64,000 nt of DNA from Candidatus Krumholzibacteriota bacterium (lineage in GTDB: Bacteria; Krumholzibacteriota; Krumholzibacteriia; JAJRXK01). This document shows positions 48,460 to 50,920 of this stretch, in pieces. A model generated the notes under the pieces. The model was not told the origin of the DNA and made no database searches. It saw only the letters and a program-made list of their open reading frames with translations. The stretch covers positions 288,001 to 352,000 of the forward strand of contig CAVSGG010000009.1 of the NCBI GenBank assembly GCA_963727455.1, written 5' to 3'. The translations under genes and the position numbers were made by a program. How positions within the stretch are numbered: position 1 is the stretch's first letter; each line of letters begins with the position of its first letter.

Positions 48460-49146
48460 ATGCATCCTTCACGTAGTCTCGCGCTGTTCTCTCTCGCCTT
48501 CGCCTTCTTTCTATTGAGCCCGGCCTACCTCGTGGCCTCCGCGCCTCCTCACGGGCTGCTGCGCGTCGGGGACCTACTTGACATGCTCACTCCTCTGGCG
48601 CTCTTGCCGCTCTACGCTCTCCTCTTGTACCAACGCCACGGGGCTTGGCCCCGATGGCCCAAAATGATTTTGTTCTTGGTGCTCTCGGCTCTCTGGGTCG
48701 AAGGGCATTCGATGCACCTGGCCGCGAACGCGTTGGGGCACTTGCTCGACGCACGGCCGCTCACCGCGGCTTATCGCCTGGATTATTTTCTGGACGAACA
48801 CCTGAGCCACGTGCTGTGGCATGCCGCTATCATCCTGCTCGCAGTCCTGCTCTTGGTCCAAGCCAAACGCGAAGAAGTAGATTCGCCGGTGAGCTGCATC
48901 GTGGGCGCGGTGCCCTATGGCTTCAGCTACTTCGCGATCACGGTGGAAGGACAGACTGCGGCGCTAGGAATCCTCGCGGCGTTCGCACTCTCGGGGTGGA
49001 TCGCTTCGAGCTTCAAAGAGCGAAAGAAGGATGCGTACTCCGTCTTCTTTCTCTCAGCGCATCTGCTTGCACTCGCACTCTATCTGCTTTGGTACCTCAT
49101 GCACGGGGGACTGCCGCAATTCAGCGAAGTGGGACTGCTAAAATGA
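48460..49146 (+). CDS. Membrane protein resembling eukaryotic CLN6
   Basis: VGD...TP, GHSMHLAANALGH, YFLDEHLSHVLW, TVEGQ in the same order as CLN6 motifs; AAGGAG SD. Confidence 0.6.
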   Translation: MHPSRSLALFSLAFAFFLLSPAYLVASAPPHGLLRVGDLLDMLTPLALLPLYALLLYQRHGAWPRWPKMILFLVLSALWVEGHSMHLAANALGHLLDARPLTAAYRLDYFLDEHLSHVLWHAAIILLAVLLLVQAKREEVDSPVSCIVGAVPYGFSYFAITVEGQTAALGILAAFALSGWIASSFKERKKDAYSVFFLSAHLLALALYLLWYLMHGGLPQFSEVGLLK

Positions 49147-49270
49147 AGAAGAATGCTAACAGCAGCAACGAGAAGAGACCGCCCCCGATGGGAACGGTCT
49201 CTTGTTCGCGCTGCCGGCGCGACGCAGCTAACAGAAGGCGTGCGCCGTGGGAGCAGGAAAACTCGGGCTT

Positions 49271-49537
49271 TTACATGCTCACGAAATCGTGGGCACGTAC
49301 TGTTTTGCGGCCATTCGCCTTGGCGCGCTTCGCGGCCTGCTCGATGTACCAGTAGACAATGCCATTGAGACCATCGAGAGCGTCTCCGGCAACGTTGACC
49401 CCGTAGTTCTTGAGCGCGACTTTCGTCTTGCTTCCCACGAGCAACATCTCCATGGCGGCCTTCCTGGAAGCGGCCTTTTTTCTCGCCGTCTTCTTCTTGG
49501 CGGTCTTCCTCTTGGCAGCGGTCTTCTTCTTGGCCAC
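49271..49537 (-). CDS. Bacterial histone-fold protein with Lys/Arg-rich N-terminal tail
   Basis: AAGGAGG SD 6 nt before GTG at 49537; core LLVGSKTK...GDALDGLN...AAKRAKANGRKTVRAHDF carries the RKTVxxxD histone-fold signature. Confidence 0.9.
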   Translation of the reverse strand: MAKKKTAAKRKTAKKKTARKKAASRKAAMEMLLVGSKTKVALKNYGVNVAGDALDGLNGIVYWYIEQAAKRAKANGRKTVRAHDFVSM

Positions 49538-49777
49538 AGTGGGCCTCCTTGGGTTTTGATTGTCAAACGAGGAGCCGGCACCACACCGGTCCTTCACGAT
49601 CGACAACGAGTCCGAGGGAAGTCCTACCCTTGGTGCAGTGCACCGTGATGGAGTGGGGTCCCATTGCGACCCGTGCGCTGTAAGAGCCGGAAATAACTCA
49701 ATCGCGCCACGACGGCAAGCGTTTTCGCGAGAACTCGTCCCACCGCGAGCGATGTTGCCTCGGCTTGGGCACCAAAC

Positions 49778-50920
49778 TCAGTGGGCGGCTGCCTCGCTCG
49801 CGGCCACGGATTTGCGAATCGCGACCAACTCGAGGTGCAGGATAAGCGGACTGTTTGGAGGAACGACTCCCGGGATACCCCGAACTCCGAATCCAAGCTT
49901 CGCGGGAAGAAAGACCCAGCGCTCCTCCCCCACCTGCATTTTCAGGAAATTCATCTCCCACTGCAGACCTCTGCGAGGCTCGCCGGCCACCAACACCTCG
50001 GGCTTTCCGTCCTGATACGTCGATTCCACCACTTTCCCGTCGGGAAGGTAGCAGGCGTAATTCACCACGATGGTCTGTCCCTTCTTCGGCTTCTCGCCAT
50101 TTCCACTCACGGTCTTGACCATGCGGCTGCCATCATCTTGCTTGCGTGATTTCTTGCGCAGTGGATCGACCCTCTCTTGGAAGCGCTGCGTGTGCAACCG
50201 GGCGAGTTGGGTCGCATCCAGGTCCTTGAGCTCTTGAAACGTGGCCTCGGCATCGAACTCTTGCGCCGCTTTCCCGCGCCGGATGATCTTCACCGACCGC
50301 AAGTGCACATCCTCCTCGGGTTTGTTGTCATTGGTGGGTACCGAAGAAATCGCGGAGACGACATCCATTCCCATCACCACGCGCCCGAAAATGCTGAATC
50401 GCCGATCGAGCTCGGACTCACGCTTCTCGGTGATGAAGAACTGGCTTCCGTTGGTGTTGGGACCCTGATTGGCCATGGCCAGGACTCCGGGACGATCAAA
50501 ACTGAGGCCCGGTACGATCTCATCGCGAAAGCGGTAGCCGGGTCCGCCGGTACCACGCCCGGTGGGATCGCCGGACTGGATGAGAAAGCCACCGATCACC
50601 CGGTGGAAGGTCAGACCGTCGTAGAAGGGTTGCTTCGTCGATTCGTCGGATTGCCCATCGACGCCGCTCCTGGTTCCCTCAGCGAGGCCCACGAAATTGG
50701 CGACCGTGAGGGGGACTCGCTGGAAGAAGAGCTTACATACGATGACGCCCAGATCGGTCTGGAGCACTGCGTACAGACCGTCGGCGGCGGTCGCTTCCTC
50801 CACCGTACCGTAACTCGGACCTGTCGCCTCGTCGGTGGCATTCTGCGCGTGAACGGGGCTTCTCAGTGGAAGGAGAAGCAACACGACGCAAAGGAAGACT
50901 CTTGCAGAAGCGCGGTGCAT
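49778..50920 (-). CDS. Exported dual cyclophilin + FKBP peptidyl-prolyl isomerase
   Basis: FHRVI, QSGDPTGRGTGGPGY, LAMAN, NGSQFFIT; C-terminal FKBP-like LGFG...VPPNSPLILHLEL. Confidence 0.9.
   Translation of the reverse strand: MHRASARVFLCVVLLLLPLRSPVHAQNATDEATGPSYGTVEEATAADGLYAVLQTDLGVIVCKLFFQRVPLTVANFVGLAEGTRSGVDGQSDESTKQPFYDGLTFHRVIGGFLIQSGDPTGRGTGGPGYRFRDEIVPGLSFDRPGVLAMANQGPNTNGSQFFITEKRESELDRRFSIFGRVVMGMDVVSAISSVPTNDNKPEEDVHLRSVKIIRRGKAAQEFDAEATFQELKDLDATQLARLHTQRFQERVDPLRKKSRKQDDGSRMVKTVSGNGEKPKKGQTIVVNYACYLPDGKVVESTYQDGKPEVLVAGEPRRGLQWEMNFLKMQVGEERWVFLPAKLGFGVRGIPGVVPPNSPLILHLELVAIRKSVAASEAAAH

What the first reader, a model, noticed from the sequence alone, without database searches (positions are those of the whole stretch)
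49271..49537. Bacterial histone with a eukaryote-style basic N-terminal tail
Seen: a strong AAGGAGG SD precedes GTG at 49537, giving an 88-aa protein. Its first 28 residues (MAKKKTAAKRKTAKKKTARKKAASRKAA) hold 11 Lys and 3 Arg, no acidic residue, and repeated KKKTA/KRKTA units. The remaining 60 aa end in ANGRKTVRAHDF. Established: RKTVxxxD with a truncated third helix marks bacterial histones such as Bdellovibrio Bd0055 and the Leptospira face-to-face type; from memory the GDALDGLN...RxTVRxxDF pattern is closest to the latter, which lack a comparable basic tail. Inference: the K/T/S-rich tail (TARKK recalls histone H3 TARKS) could compact or bridge DNA and carry acetylation or phosphorylation, implying tail-regulated bacterial chromatin. 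How novel tailed versions are in this lineage needs checking.
Basis: partly seen in the sequence, partly recalled or inferred. Interest (0 to 1): 0.9.

Follow-up and report, generated by a model that had tools for sequence, protein, structure and literature searches.

The report
Lysine-tailed face-to-face bacterial histone
This gene encodes a small bacterial histone of the recently described tetramer-forming type, carrying a floppy lysine-rich front tail; such tails have already been reported as common on these bacterial histones, so it is a clear but fairly ordinary example whose tail function is still untested.

Summary
Window 49537..49271 (-) is an 88-aa ORF with a GTG start and an AAGGAGG 6 nt upstream. 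Residues 1-28 hold 11 K and 3 R and no acidic residue.

**What the core is:**
- It is an alpha3-truncated histone of the face-to-face (FtF) type.
- The best solved relative is Leptospira HLp (phmmer E 4.4e-10; Foldseek TM 0.96, rmsd 0.8 A).
- The HLp tetramer and RD-clamp residues are present: R71, N75, R77, D84.
- A four-copy model scored 0.89 against 0.00 for the best control. This may be memory of the solved HLp tetramer.

**What the tail is:**
- It is predicted disordered.
- It is kept in composition, not sequence, in 119 of the 120 closest homologues.
- The H3-like reading fails: ARK[ST] is in 0 of 117 tails and TARK in 7 of 117.

**Novelty:** Schwab et al. 2024 (PMC11390915) already state that tails are common on bacterial FtF histones and are mostly positively charged.

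**Host:** a Krumholzibacteriota MAG. It also encodes a tailless HTkC-like histone and three HU/IHF genes.

**Verdict:** a new member of a known kind. The likely mechanism is a DNA-wrapping tetramer whose four H1-like tails add affinity and bridging. PTM regulation is untested.

The parts
49271..49537 (-). Histone gene, 88 codons plus stop (GTG start, TAA stop)
   Evidence: There are 2108 homologues at E<=0.001. Orthologues in the genus keep the same start.
49454..49537 (-). N-terminal tail, residues 1-28: 11 K, 3 R, no acidic residue, net +14; predicted disordered
   Evidence: One search gives the composition. In one search, pLDDT is 46, 48 and 66 for the first three blocks of 10 residues, with no secondary structure before residue 35. 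A basic tail is present in 119 of 120 listed homologues. An imperfect 15-18-nt tandem array lies at 49488-49534.
49274..49453 (-). Histone-fold core, residues 29-88: alpha1 35-43, alpha2 53-74, one-turn alpha3 82-84; G35-S36-K37, K39, K43, R71, N75, R77-K78-T79, D84, F85
   Evidence: One search is the AlphaFold2 model, with pLDDT 93-97 over residues 31-80. One search gives an ungapped phmmer alignment to HLp 9qt0 (E 4.4e-10). One search gives Foldseek TM 0.96 and rmsd 0.8 A to 9qt1. In one search, N75, R77 and D84 are invariant in 150 sequences.
49544..49550 (-). Shine-Dalgarno AAGGAGG, 6 nt before the GTG
   Evidence: It is invariant in the four genomes of the genus aligned.
49538..49665 (-). 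Probable 5' untranslated leader, conserved within the genus, with predicted hairpins
   Evidence: Searches show the conservation (mean column identity 84%; 45 predicted pairs, only 1 with a compensatory change). In one search, metatranscriptome contigs of two studies end at 49645-49665 while a DNA contig runs on to 49852, which is a weak hint only. No Rfam match.
49162..49214 (-). Strong hairpin after the stop codon, between the histone gene and the convergent gene that ends at 49146; terminator-like but without a clear U-run
   Evidence: the 126-nt 3' region folds at -58.1 kcal/mol, z -4.6, and 0 of 200 shuffles fold as well. The simple terminator scan did not list it.

Best explanation
The gene encodes a nucleoid-associated histone of the alpha3-truncated, face-to-face (FtF) family.

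**Shown by computation:**
- The 60-residue core has the HLp fold.
- It keeps the HLp residues that make the dimer-dimer hydrogen-bond network (R71, N75, R77, F85).
- It keeps the RD clamp (R77-D84).
- It keeps most HLp DNA-backbone contacts (S36, K37, K39, K43, G51, T79).
- The 28-residue N-terminal tail is predicted disordered. It is conserved in charge and make-up but not in sequence.

**Inferred by analogy with HLp:**
- Two monomers form the handshake dimer, and two dimers close into a ring-like tetramer.
- DNA (about 60 bp in HLp) wraps around the tetramer without sequence preference.

**Inferred for the tail:**
- It leaves the fold directly before the G-S-K 'paired ends of helices' DNA contact.
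- The four tails of a tetramer (about +14 each) would therefore lie on or between DNA gyres.
- There they would neutralise phosphate, raise affinity, slow dissociation and bridge or condense neighbouring DNA.
- This is how the C-terminal domain of linker histone H1 and the Lys/Ala-rich tails of actinobacterial HU are thought to work.

The protein works alongside three HU/IHF proteins and a second, tailless FtF-type histone in the same genome.
For: **Homology**
- phmmer against PDB gives HLp 9qt0 at E 4.4e-10, HBb at 2.5e-4 and HTkC at 3.6e-3.
- Foldseek TM (target) is 0.96/0.95 with rmsd 0.8 A to HLp, 0.85-0.89 to HBb and 0.89 to HTkC.
- a weak match to NCBIfam archaea_histone (E 0.019, below cut-off).

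**Signature residues**
- The ungapped alignment, read with PMC12701072 sections 7 and 9, maps HLp R49/N53/R55/F63/D62 to R71/N75/R77/F85/D84.
- N75, R77 and D84 are invariant and R71 is at least 90% conserved in 150 sequences.
- The R-x3-N-x-R-[KR]-T-x4-D motif is in 118 of 119 close homologues.

**Tetramer**
- modelled four copies of residues 27-88.
- The score was 0.89 in each of three runs; the best of 3 controls was 0.00.
- The runs agree in at least 98% of contacts, and the partner pLDDT is at least 92.
- The tool's calibration: the mark was reached by 20 of 30 proteins solved as pairs of one chain and by 1 of 23 solved as single chains. These counts hold only roughly here, because I used my own alignment and four copies.
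- The second interface uses residues 67, 70-71, 73-75, 77, 81, 83-84 and 86-88, which is the HLp tetramer surface.

**Tail**
- Real and translated in frame: 119 of 120 listed homologues carry it. The genus keeps the GTG and SD.
- Position 29 is M in only 63 of 119, so an internal start there is not conserved.
- Disorder.
- Transcription across the tail codons and leader: RNA-library contigs. This is weak, since these are contigs only.
Against: - Nothing here is experimental, and the organism is an uncultured MAG.
- Pfam gives no histone hit for this protein.
- The tetramer model may simply recall the solved HLp (9QT0) and HTkC (9F2C) tetramers. The tool warns of this.
- Two of six HLp tetramer-network positions differ: HLp S52 is A74 here and HLp T61 is H83.
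- HLp T27, a DNA contact, is V49 here.
- The role of the tail is inferred only from charge, position and analogy. It could be cleaved or could serve another purpose.
- The genome has three HU/IHF genes, so the histone need not be the main architectural protein.
- Within the phylum sample the orthologue was found only in one family: own genome plus 7 of 8 others, and none outside it among 101 genomes searched. That fits an accessory, possibly transferred gene.
- RNA evidence comes from assembled contigs, which cannot show level, strand or true ends.
Confidence: 0.62

Rival explanations
1. Eukaryote-style regulated tail. The tail's main role would be to carry reversible acetylation or phosphorylation that switches chromatin states, as H3/H4 tails do.
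For: - The tail has 11 Lys and 4 Ser/Thr.
- The genome has four HDAC-family (PF00850) matches.
- There is a precedent on another bacterial NAP: deacetylase CobB1 raises the DNA affinity of the Lys-rich-tailed HupS in Streptomyces. I saw only the title and the start of the abstract (PMC11229371, listing).
Against: - No sequence motif is conserved beyond the first M-A-K-K: TARK is in 7 of 117 tails and ARK[ST] in 0 of 117.
- Tail length ranges from 11 to 37 residues.
- Some tails are almost pure Lys runs with no Ser or Thr; 17 of 117 have none.
- No modifier gene is adjacent. No Sir2 was found in this 88.9%-complete genome.
- PF00850 is found in 9 of 14 control genomes, so its presence says little.
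Confidence: 0.12
2. It acts as a dimer that bends or coats DNA, like Bdellovibrio HBb/Bd0055, and not as a wrapping tetramer. The tails would then give the extra contacts.
For: - HBb is a clear relative (E 2.5e-4; TM 0.85-0.89).
- Two HLp tetramer-network residues differ (A74, H83).
- A single R-to-A change turns HTkC towards dimer-like behaviour, according to the preprint 10.64898/2025.12.06.692711 (passage seen).
Against: - Bacterial dimer histones are described as lacking the R and N of the dimer-dimer contact (PMC11390915). Both are present and conserved here as R71 and N75.
- The four-copy model closes the second interface with a score of 0.89 against 0.00 for the best control (this may be from memory).
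- HLp is the better match by both sequence and fold.
Confidence: 0.15
3. The tail is not made: translation starts at Met29 or Met31 and gives a tail-less 58-60-aa histone like HLp.
For: - An A/G-rich stretch (AGGAAGG) lies 5 nt before the ATG of Met29.
- For HLp itself the longer database form was judged wrong from the SD position (PMC12701072 section 7).
Against: - A strong AAGGAGG sits 6 nt before the GTG.
- The tail frame stays open and Lys-rich in 119 of 120 homologues. Most of them begin M-A-K-K: 101 of the 117 tails analysed.
- Met29 is present in only 63 of 119.
- Purine-rich Lys/Arg codons create SD-like strings by themselves.
Confidence: 0.04
4. It is not a chromatin protein. A histone-fold scaffold with a polycationic tail might instead bind RNA or ribosomes, or polyanions such as polyphosphate.
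For: - Lys/Ala-rich extensions also occur on ribosomal proteins.
- Schwab et al. caution that not all histone-fold proteins need be genome organisers (PMC11390915, passage).
Against: - The DNA-contact residues of HLp are kept.
- The nearest characterised relatives all bind DNA.
- The gene is not in a ribosomal or RNA-processing context.
Confidence: 0.05

Closest known systems
HLp, the tetrameric face-to-face histone of Leptospira perolatii (PDB 9QT0/9QT1/9QT2; Hu et al. 2025, PMC12701072)
   Same: - Same fold: TM 0.96, rmsd 0.8 A, 46% identity.
- Same one-turn alpha3, RD clamp and R/N/R tetramer network.
- Same S-K and K DNA contacts on alpha1.
- Predicted tetramer through the same surface.
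   Different: - HLp is 63 aa. Its short N-terminal stretch (about 7 disordered residues) is not basic in the aligned chain. This protein has a 28-residue, +14 tail.
- HLp S52, T61 and T27 are A74, H83 and V49 here.
Basic-tailed bacterial FtF histones as a class (Schwab et al. 2024, PMC11390915)
   Same: [quoted passage not shown] That is what I see in 119 of 120 close homologues.
   Different: - In the passages I saw, the paper names Spirochaetota, Planctomycetota, Bdellovibrionota and Myxococcota. Krumholzibacteriota is not mentioned there.
- A library search for 'Krumholzibacteriota' with 'histone' found 0 papers.
HBb / Bd0055, the bacterial dimer histone of Bdellovibrio bacteriovorus (PDB 8CMP, 8FVX, 9EZZ)
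   Same: Alpha3-truncated singlet with RKT...D and the S-K motif on alpha1.
   Different: It is a more distant relative (E 2.5e-4). The dimer class lacks the R and N of the tetramer contact, which this protein has. HBb has no long basic tail.
Lys/Ala-rich 'eukaryotic-like' tails on bacterial HU: mycobacterial HupB and Streptomyces HupS
   Same: A disordered polycationic Lys/Ala-rich extension on a small nucleoid protein. For HupS it is linked to acetylation-dependent DNA affinity. I saw titles and the starts of abstracts only (PMC5676037, PMC2932737, PMC11229371).
   Different: The tail there is C-terminal and is attached to an HU fold, which is unrelated to the histone fold. This is an analogy of mechanism, not homology.
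Eukaryotic and Asgard histone N-terminal tails
   Same: An N-terminal, disordered, basic extension of a histone fold.
   Different: There are no conserved modification motifs: ARK[ST] is in 0 of 117 tails. The core is an alpha3-truncated homotetramer former, not a nucleosomal histone. The best nucleosomal or Asgard structures reach only TM about 0.5-0.6.

Membership tests
alpha3-truncated prokaryotic histones (Schwab et al. 2024) | alpha3 helix cut to 3-4 residues | tested here: met
   In the AF2 model alpha3 is residues 82-84, and the chain ends 4 residues later. It superposes on HLp at rmsd 0.8 A.
alpha3-truncated prokaryotic histones (Schwab et al. 2024) | RKTxxxD loop-2 motif with the R-D clamp | tested here: met
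   R77-K78-T79 ... D84. R77 and D84 are invariant in 150 aligned sequences.
Face-to-face (FtF) histones | Conserved R and N at the end of alpha2, plus the loop-2 R, that make the dimer-dimer network (HLp R49, N53, R55) | tested here: met
   R71, N75 and R77 by the ungapped alignment to 9qt0, read with PMC12701072 section 7. The motif is in 118 of 119 close homologues.
Face-to-face (FtF) histones | Confident predicted tetramer in which both sides of each dimer engage | tested here: met
   - score 0.89, best of 3 controls 0.00.
- Tool calibration: 20 of 30 homo-pairs and 1 of 23 single chains reach the mark. These counts hold only roughly here.
- The runs agree in at least 98% of contacts; pLDDT is at least 92.
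- The interface residues 67-88 match the HLp surface.
- A like complex is solved, so the pass shows likeness and may come from memory.
Face-to-face (FtF) histones | Tetramer in solution, and DNA wrapped around it | not testable with these tools
   This needs SEC-MALS, TPM, MNase or crystallography, as was done for HLp.
Bacterial dimer histones (HBb/Bd0055 type) | Lack of the tetramer-contact R and N; no confident multimer beyond the dimer | tested here: not met
   Both residues are present, and a tetramer is modelled with confidence. I do not file it here.
Pfam histone families (PF00808 CBFD_NFYB_HMF, PF09123 DUF1931) | Score above the Pfam gathering cut-off | tested here: not met
   No histone family was reported even at E up to 10. 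The models miss this clade. The paralogue L082:1501-1671 just passes DUF1931 (22.5 against 21.8 bits).
Eukaryote-type modifiable histone tail (H3/H4-like) | Conserved sequence motifs around modifiable residues (such as ARKS/ARTK) | tested here: not met
   ARK[ST] is in 0 of 117 tails and TARK in 7 of 117. Only the first M-A-K-K is conserved, in 101 of 117.
Eukaryote-type modifiable histone tail (H3/H4-like) | Demonstrated reversible modification with a regulatory effect | not testable with these tools
   This needs mass spectrometry and genetics.

The most novel reading that the evidence does not exclude
The long-tailed subclade would be a one-polypeptide 'core histone plus linker histone'. 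In this reading:
- An FtF tetramer wraps about 60 bp.
- Its four H1-like Lys/Ala/Thr tails bridge and condense neighbouring DNA.
- Tail charge is tuned by lysine acetylation, using the genome's HDAC-family enzymes.
- The tailed form mixes with the tailless HTkC-like paralogue to set the degree of compaction.
- The module has moved horizontally between at least six bacterial phyla.

That would be tail-regulated histone chromatin in bacteria, arising independently of eukaryotes.
Probability: 0.1. Interest if true: 0.75.

Novelty: new member of a known kind. Interest (0 to 1): 0.35.

Why it matters
Bacterial histones were recognised as real chromatin proteins only in 2023-2025. In the papers I read, only tail-less or nearly tail-less examples have been studied at the bench: HBb, HLp and the archaeal HTkC.

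This gene is a clean, typical example of the much larger untested group with long polycationic tails. There are at least 2108 sequence clusters at E<=0.001, and the 120 best listed are nearly all tailed.

It therefore offers a simple test. Comparing the full-length protein with a 1-28 deletion would show whether tails on a prokaryotic histone change wrapping, bridging or condensation.

It does not overturn current views. The existence and positive charge of such tails are already in print.

Tried and rejected
- **Pfam scan.** It gave only a meaningless DUF6465 match (E 1.8). NCBIfam gave sub-threshold archaea_histone and LIC_13387 matches. I did not use them for classification.
- **Promoter and terminator scan.** It found no sigma-70-like promoter and no minus-strand terminator near the gene. 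The two plus-strand 'terminators' lie inside the coding region and are chance matches. The hairpin after the stop was found by folding.
- **Rfam on 49100-49900.** No match.
- **Consensus fold of the leader.** Only 4 close sequences were used, and 1 of 45 pairs showed a compensatory change, so no structure is shown.
- **Read laying.**
  - All runs are assembled contigs, so they give no expression level, strand or true 5' end.
  - The RNA-library contigs did not cover 49271-49424. I draw nothing from that.
  - Many 30-45-nt contigs pile up on 49483-49534. They are Lys-codon repeats that also fit other organisms.
  - Habitat labels of small-share runs are not used.
- **Tree.** It used 59 columns for 84 rows; 3 of 79 inner branches were starred. 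The window's 17-row clade has SH-aLRT 87 only. It is not proof of transfer or of a single origin of long tails. Rows left out: L049, L057 and L068 (doublets) and L078 (partial or masked).
- **Start-codon heuristic on the 80 species loci.** It mis-called L001 by missing the GTG start. It over-extended L048, and probably L036 and L072. Tail lengths from that call are approximate.
- **Doublet flag.** It under-counts doublets, giving 16. Several doublets whose first repeat aligned best were not flagged.
- **HDAC and Sir2 searches.** They are too unspecific to bear on tail modification.
- **Idea rejected: a conserved internal start at Met29.** M is there in only 63 of 119 homologues.
- **Idea rejected: an H3-like motif.**
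- **The search of earlier findings was closed.** No earlier notes were seen.
- **Supplementary files were closed.** Supplementary Fig. 13 and the tables of PMC11390915 could already show this clade or this phylum.
Full report
**1. The observation**

- On the minus strand a GTG at 49537 opens an 88-codon frame that ends with TAA at 49273-49271.
- AAGGAGG lies at 49550-49544, 6 nt upstream of the GTG.
- Residues 1-28 contain 11 K, 3 R, 9 A, 3 T and 1 S, with no acidic residue.
- The three KKKTA / KRKTA / KKKTA units correspond to an imperfect 15-18-nt tandem array at 49488-49534.
- The list of ORFs also shows a longer form from TTG 49606 (111 aa). One database entry (P0004) uses that start. The extra residues are not shared outside the genus, where homologues begin M-A-K-K.
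- Within the genus, the GTG, the SD and the tail are all kept.

**2. The core**

*Family libraries and solved structures*
- Pfam finds nothing useful. NCBIfam gives only a sub-threshold archaeal-histone match (E 0.019).
- Against the sequences of solved structures the picture is clear:
  - 9qt0, the Leptospira perolatii histone HLp, matches at E 4.4e-10. The alignment is ungapped over query 25-85.
  - The Bdellovibrio histone HBb/Bd0055 (8cmp, 8fvx) matches at about 2.5e-4.
  - 9f2c, the archaeal FtF histone HTkC, matches at 3.6e-3.

*Structure model*
- I built an AlphaFold2 model on an alignment of 150 sequences (A1). They were chosen as 117 of the 120 listed hits, plus 32 of the 150 representatives, plus the query.
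- The model has pLDDT 93-97 over residues 31-80. It shows helices 35-43 and 53-74 and a single turn at 82-84.
- Foldseek ranks HLp first (TM normalised to target 0.96/0.95, rmsd 0.8 A, 46% identity). HBb follows at 0.85-0.89 and HTkC at 0.89. Nucleosomal and Asgard histones reach only about 0.5-0.6.

*Residue mapping*
- I read sections 7 and 9 of Hu et al. 2025 (PMC12701072). Paper numbering equals query numbering minus 22.
- The tetramer network R49/S52/N53 with F63/T61/R55 maps to R71/A74/N75 with F85/H83/R77.
- The RD clamp R55-D62 maps to R77-D84.
- The DNA contacts A13-S14-K15, K17, K21, T27, G29 and T56-T57 map to G35-S36-K37, K39, K43, V49, G51 and K78-T79.
- The three residues the paper calls conserved among tetrameric bacterial FtF histones (R49, N53, R55) are all present.
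- In A1, N75, R77 and D84 are invariant and R71 is at least 90% conserved.
- The combined motif is in 118 of 119 close homologues and in 128 of 150 representatives.
- Schwab et al. 2024 describe bacterial dimer histones as lacking exactly this R and N (PMC11390915, passage). The protein is therefore of the FtF type, not the HBb type.

**3. Oligomer**

- I modelled four copies of residues 27-88 with alignment A1.
- The score was 0.89 in each of three runs. The best of 3 controls scored 0.00.
- The runs agree in at least 98% of contacts, and the partner pLDDT is at least 92.
- The tool's calibration: the mark was reached by 20 of 30 proteins solved as pairs of one chain and by 1 of 23 solved as single chains. 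The tool adds that these counts hold only roughly here, because I used my own alignment and four copies.
- The scored copy makes a full handshake interface with one copy. It makes a second, smaller interface with another copy through residues 67, 70-71, 73-75, 77, 81, 83-84 and 86-88, which is the HLp dimer-dimer surface.
- Tetramers of HLp and HTkC are solved, so this pass shows likeness and may come from memory. It does not show that this protein forms tetramers.

**4. The tail**

*Disorder and conservation*
- It is predicted disordered: pLDDT is 46, 48 and 66 in the first three blocks of ten residues.
- The word-indexed search found 2108 proteins at E<=0.001 among 2227 candidates of 48-154 aa.
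- Of the 120 listed, 119 carry a basic N-terminal extension of at least 8 residues. The exception, P0005, is a tailless doublet.

*Make-up of 117 tails*
- The set was the query plus 116 homologues. I dropped P0004 and P0005 before the count, and P0088 and P0107 failed my core pattern.
- Composition: K 44%, A 28%, R 6.5%, T 5%, S 4%, P 4%.
- Length is 11-37 residues, median 23. Net charge is +4 to +17, median +12.
- Acidic residues occur in only 2 tails.
- The only conserved sequence is the start: M/V-A-K-K in 101 of 117.
- TARK occurs in 7 of 117 and ARK[ST] in 0 of 117.
- The tail is thus conserved as a polycation, not as a set of sites. In make-up it resembles linker-histone or HU tails more than H3/H4 tails.

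*Wider survey*
- The exhaustive search of 50%-identity representatives gave 255 proteins at E<=0.001, of which 150 were listed.
- By my script, the 150 split as follows:
  - 57 with a basic tail of at least 8 residues;
  - 38 with a non-basic or probably over-called extension;
  - 49 with fewer than 8 residues;
  - 6 partial.
- At least 16 of the 150 are doublets.
- Among 80 species-representative loci, 11 have K-rich tails of 11 or more residues. They are Krumholzibacteriota, Planctomycetota, an Acidobacteria MAG, Nitrospirales, Chloroflexota, Myxococcota and one Bacteriovoracaceae.
- Many Elusimicrobiota and Bdellovibrionota have only a 4-10-residue M-A-K-K stub. The archaeal ones (Iainarchaeota and others) have none (the start choice there is heuristic).

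*Where the tail leaves the fold*
- It comes directly before G35-S36-K37. The equivalent residues in HLp touch the DNA backbone.
- In the model the N-terminal segments 30-35 of the two protomers of a dimer lie against each other.
- The tails should therefore emerge at the DNA-binding face.

**5. Start codon and expression**

- Position 29 is Met in only 63 of 119 close homologues. An internal start there is not a conserved feature.
- Metatranscriptome contigs cover the tail codons and about 110-130 nt of leader with 1-3 differences:
  - X11: 223 nt, 49443-49665.
  - X19: 152 nt, 49494-49645.
  - X23: 160 nt, 49503-49662.
  - X11 and X19 are one sample, so the RNA runs represent two studies.
- A DNA contig (X2) runs on to 49852.
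It is not proof of transcription or of its level.

**6. Organism and distribution**

- A named MAG record of Candidatus Krumholzibacteriota (L001) is syntenic with the window over 10 kb, at 82-97% amino-acid identity in the flanking genes. The window therefore comes from that phylum.
- The genome held is 3.46 Mb in 18 contigs, 88.9% complete, with 6.7% contamination.
- In a sample of 101 genomes of the phylum, 64 have some match at E<=0.001.
- The full-length orthologue (E<=1e-29) was found only in family f1: the own genome plus 7 of 8 others. The missing one, G058, is 93% complete. Outside f1 the best E is 4.8e-9.
- A quick tree of 84 cores over 59 columns is poorly resolved. It puts the f1 sequences in a 17-row group (SH-aLRT 87, not starred) with Planctomycetota, Acidobacteriota, Myxococcota, Verrucomicrobiota and Nitrospirota rows.
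- This fits the horizontal spread that Schwab et al. suggest for alpha3 histones, but it does not prove it.
- Neighbouring genes are unrelated to chromatin:
  - a CLN6-like membrane protein;
  - a cyclophilin-FKBP fusion;
  - an S49 peptidase;
  - an ArsP-type permease.

**7. Other nucleoid proteins in the genome**

- There are three HU/IHF (PF00216) genes.
- There is a second alpha3 histone at G000:C5:132991-133158. It is 56 aa with no tail. Its best solved relative is HTkC (E 6.1e-7), and it just passes Pfam DUF1931.
- The weaker matches across the phylum are mostly of this second type.

**8. What is in print**

- Schwab et al. 2024 (PMC11390915; passages seen) define the alpha3 family and the FtF category. 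[quoted passage not shown] - Hocher et al. 2023 (PMC10627809; passages) say most bacterial singlets lack long tails.
- Hu et al. 2025 (passages; abstract and outline; sections 7 and 9) characterise the nearly tail-less HLp.
- The HTkC preprint (10.64898/2025.12.06.692711; passages) calls HLp the only FtF histone characterised functionally before it.
- My searches found no bench study of a long-tailed bacterial FtF histone. 'Krumholzibacteriota' with 'histone' found 0 papers.
- The library is not complete, and supplements were closed.
- Lys-rich 'eukaryotic-like' tails on HU, one of them linked to deacetylation, are in print (PMC5676037, PMC2932737, PMC11229371). I saw only titles and the starts of abstracts.

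**9. Verdict**

- The feature that earned the high first-stage score, a basic tail on a bacterial histone, is already described as common for this family. The H3-like reading of the tail fails the conservation test.
- Three things remain of interest:
  - the tailed majority of bacterial FtF histones is untested at the bench;
  - this is a typical and tractable example, in a phylum not named in the text I could read;
  - the genome pairs it with a tailless FtF paralogue.
- I rate it a new member of a known kind, with interest 0.35.

Noticed in passing
own genome G000:C5:132991-133158 (L082:1501-1671, +): A second, tailless alpha3-type histone of 56 aa in the same genome. Its best solved relative is the archaeal FtF histone HTkC (9f2c, E 6.1e-7). 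It just passes Pfam DUF1931. Matches of this weaker type occur across the phylum sample. Whether it mixes with the tailed histone is open.
   Followed up: partly
window 49538-49787 (-): The 240-nt spacer between the cyclophilin-FKBP gene and the histone start is very well conserved in four genomes of the genus, with long invariant runs and several hairpins. RNA-library contigs stop at 49645-49665. There is no Rfam match. With only 1 compensatory pair among 45, it may be a leader or promoter element, but no structure is shown.
   Followed up: partly
proteins P0146, P0152, P0157, P0159: Close relatives of the core with no N-terminal tail but a 34-60-residue acidic, Glu/Ala/Pro-rich C-terminal extension. 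This is the opposite charge arrangement.
   Followed up: no
proteins P0166, P0176, P0267: Doublet relatives that begin with a hydrophobic, signal-peptide-like segment. This hints at exported or membrane-anchored histone-fold proteins.
   Followed up: no
proteins P0257, P0178, P0241: Relatives with very long tails. P0257 has 72 residues and P0178 has 49, both of near-perfect A-K-K-A-P/A-A-K-K type repeats. P0241 has an 85-residue Ser/Thr/Arg-rich tail. Tail length seems to change by repeat expansion.
   Followed up: no
window 48460-49146 (+): The convergent neighbour is a 228-aa membrane protein that matches Pfam CLN6 above its cut-off (E 6.6e-8, 32.7 against 27 bits). CLN6 is a family named for a eukaryotic lysosomal-disease protein.
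   Followed up: no
window 49778-50920 (-): A 380-aa fusion of a cyclophilin-type and an FKBP-type prolyl isomerase with a hydrophobic N-terminus lies directly upstream of the histone on the same strand.
   Followed up: no
own genome: G000:C8:302790-303704, C9:42205-43122, C8:166305-167093, C3:211689-212489: Four HDAC-family (PF00850) matches above cut-off in a 3.5-Mb genome, and no Sir2 match (genome 88.9% complete). None is near the histone gene.
   Followed up: no
window 49483-49534: Dozens of 30-45-nt contigs from both RNA and DNA runs pile up here. The Lys-codon repeat of the tail is shared, at 90% or more identity, with many other organisms' genes in the same samples.
   Followed up: no
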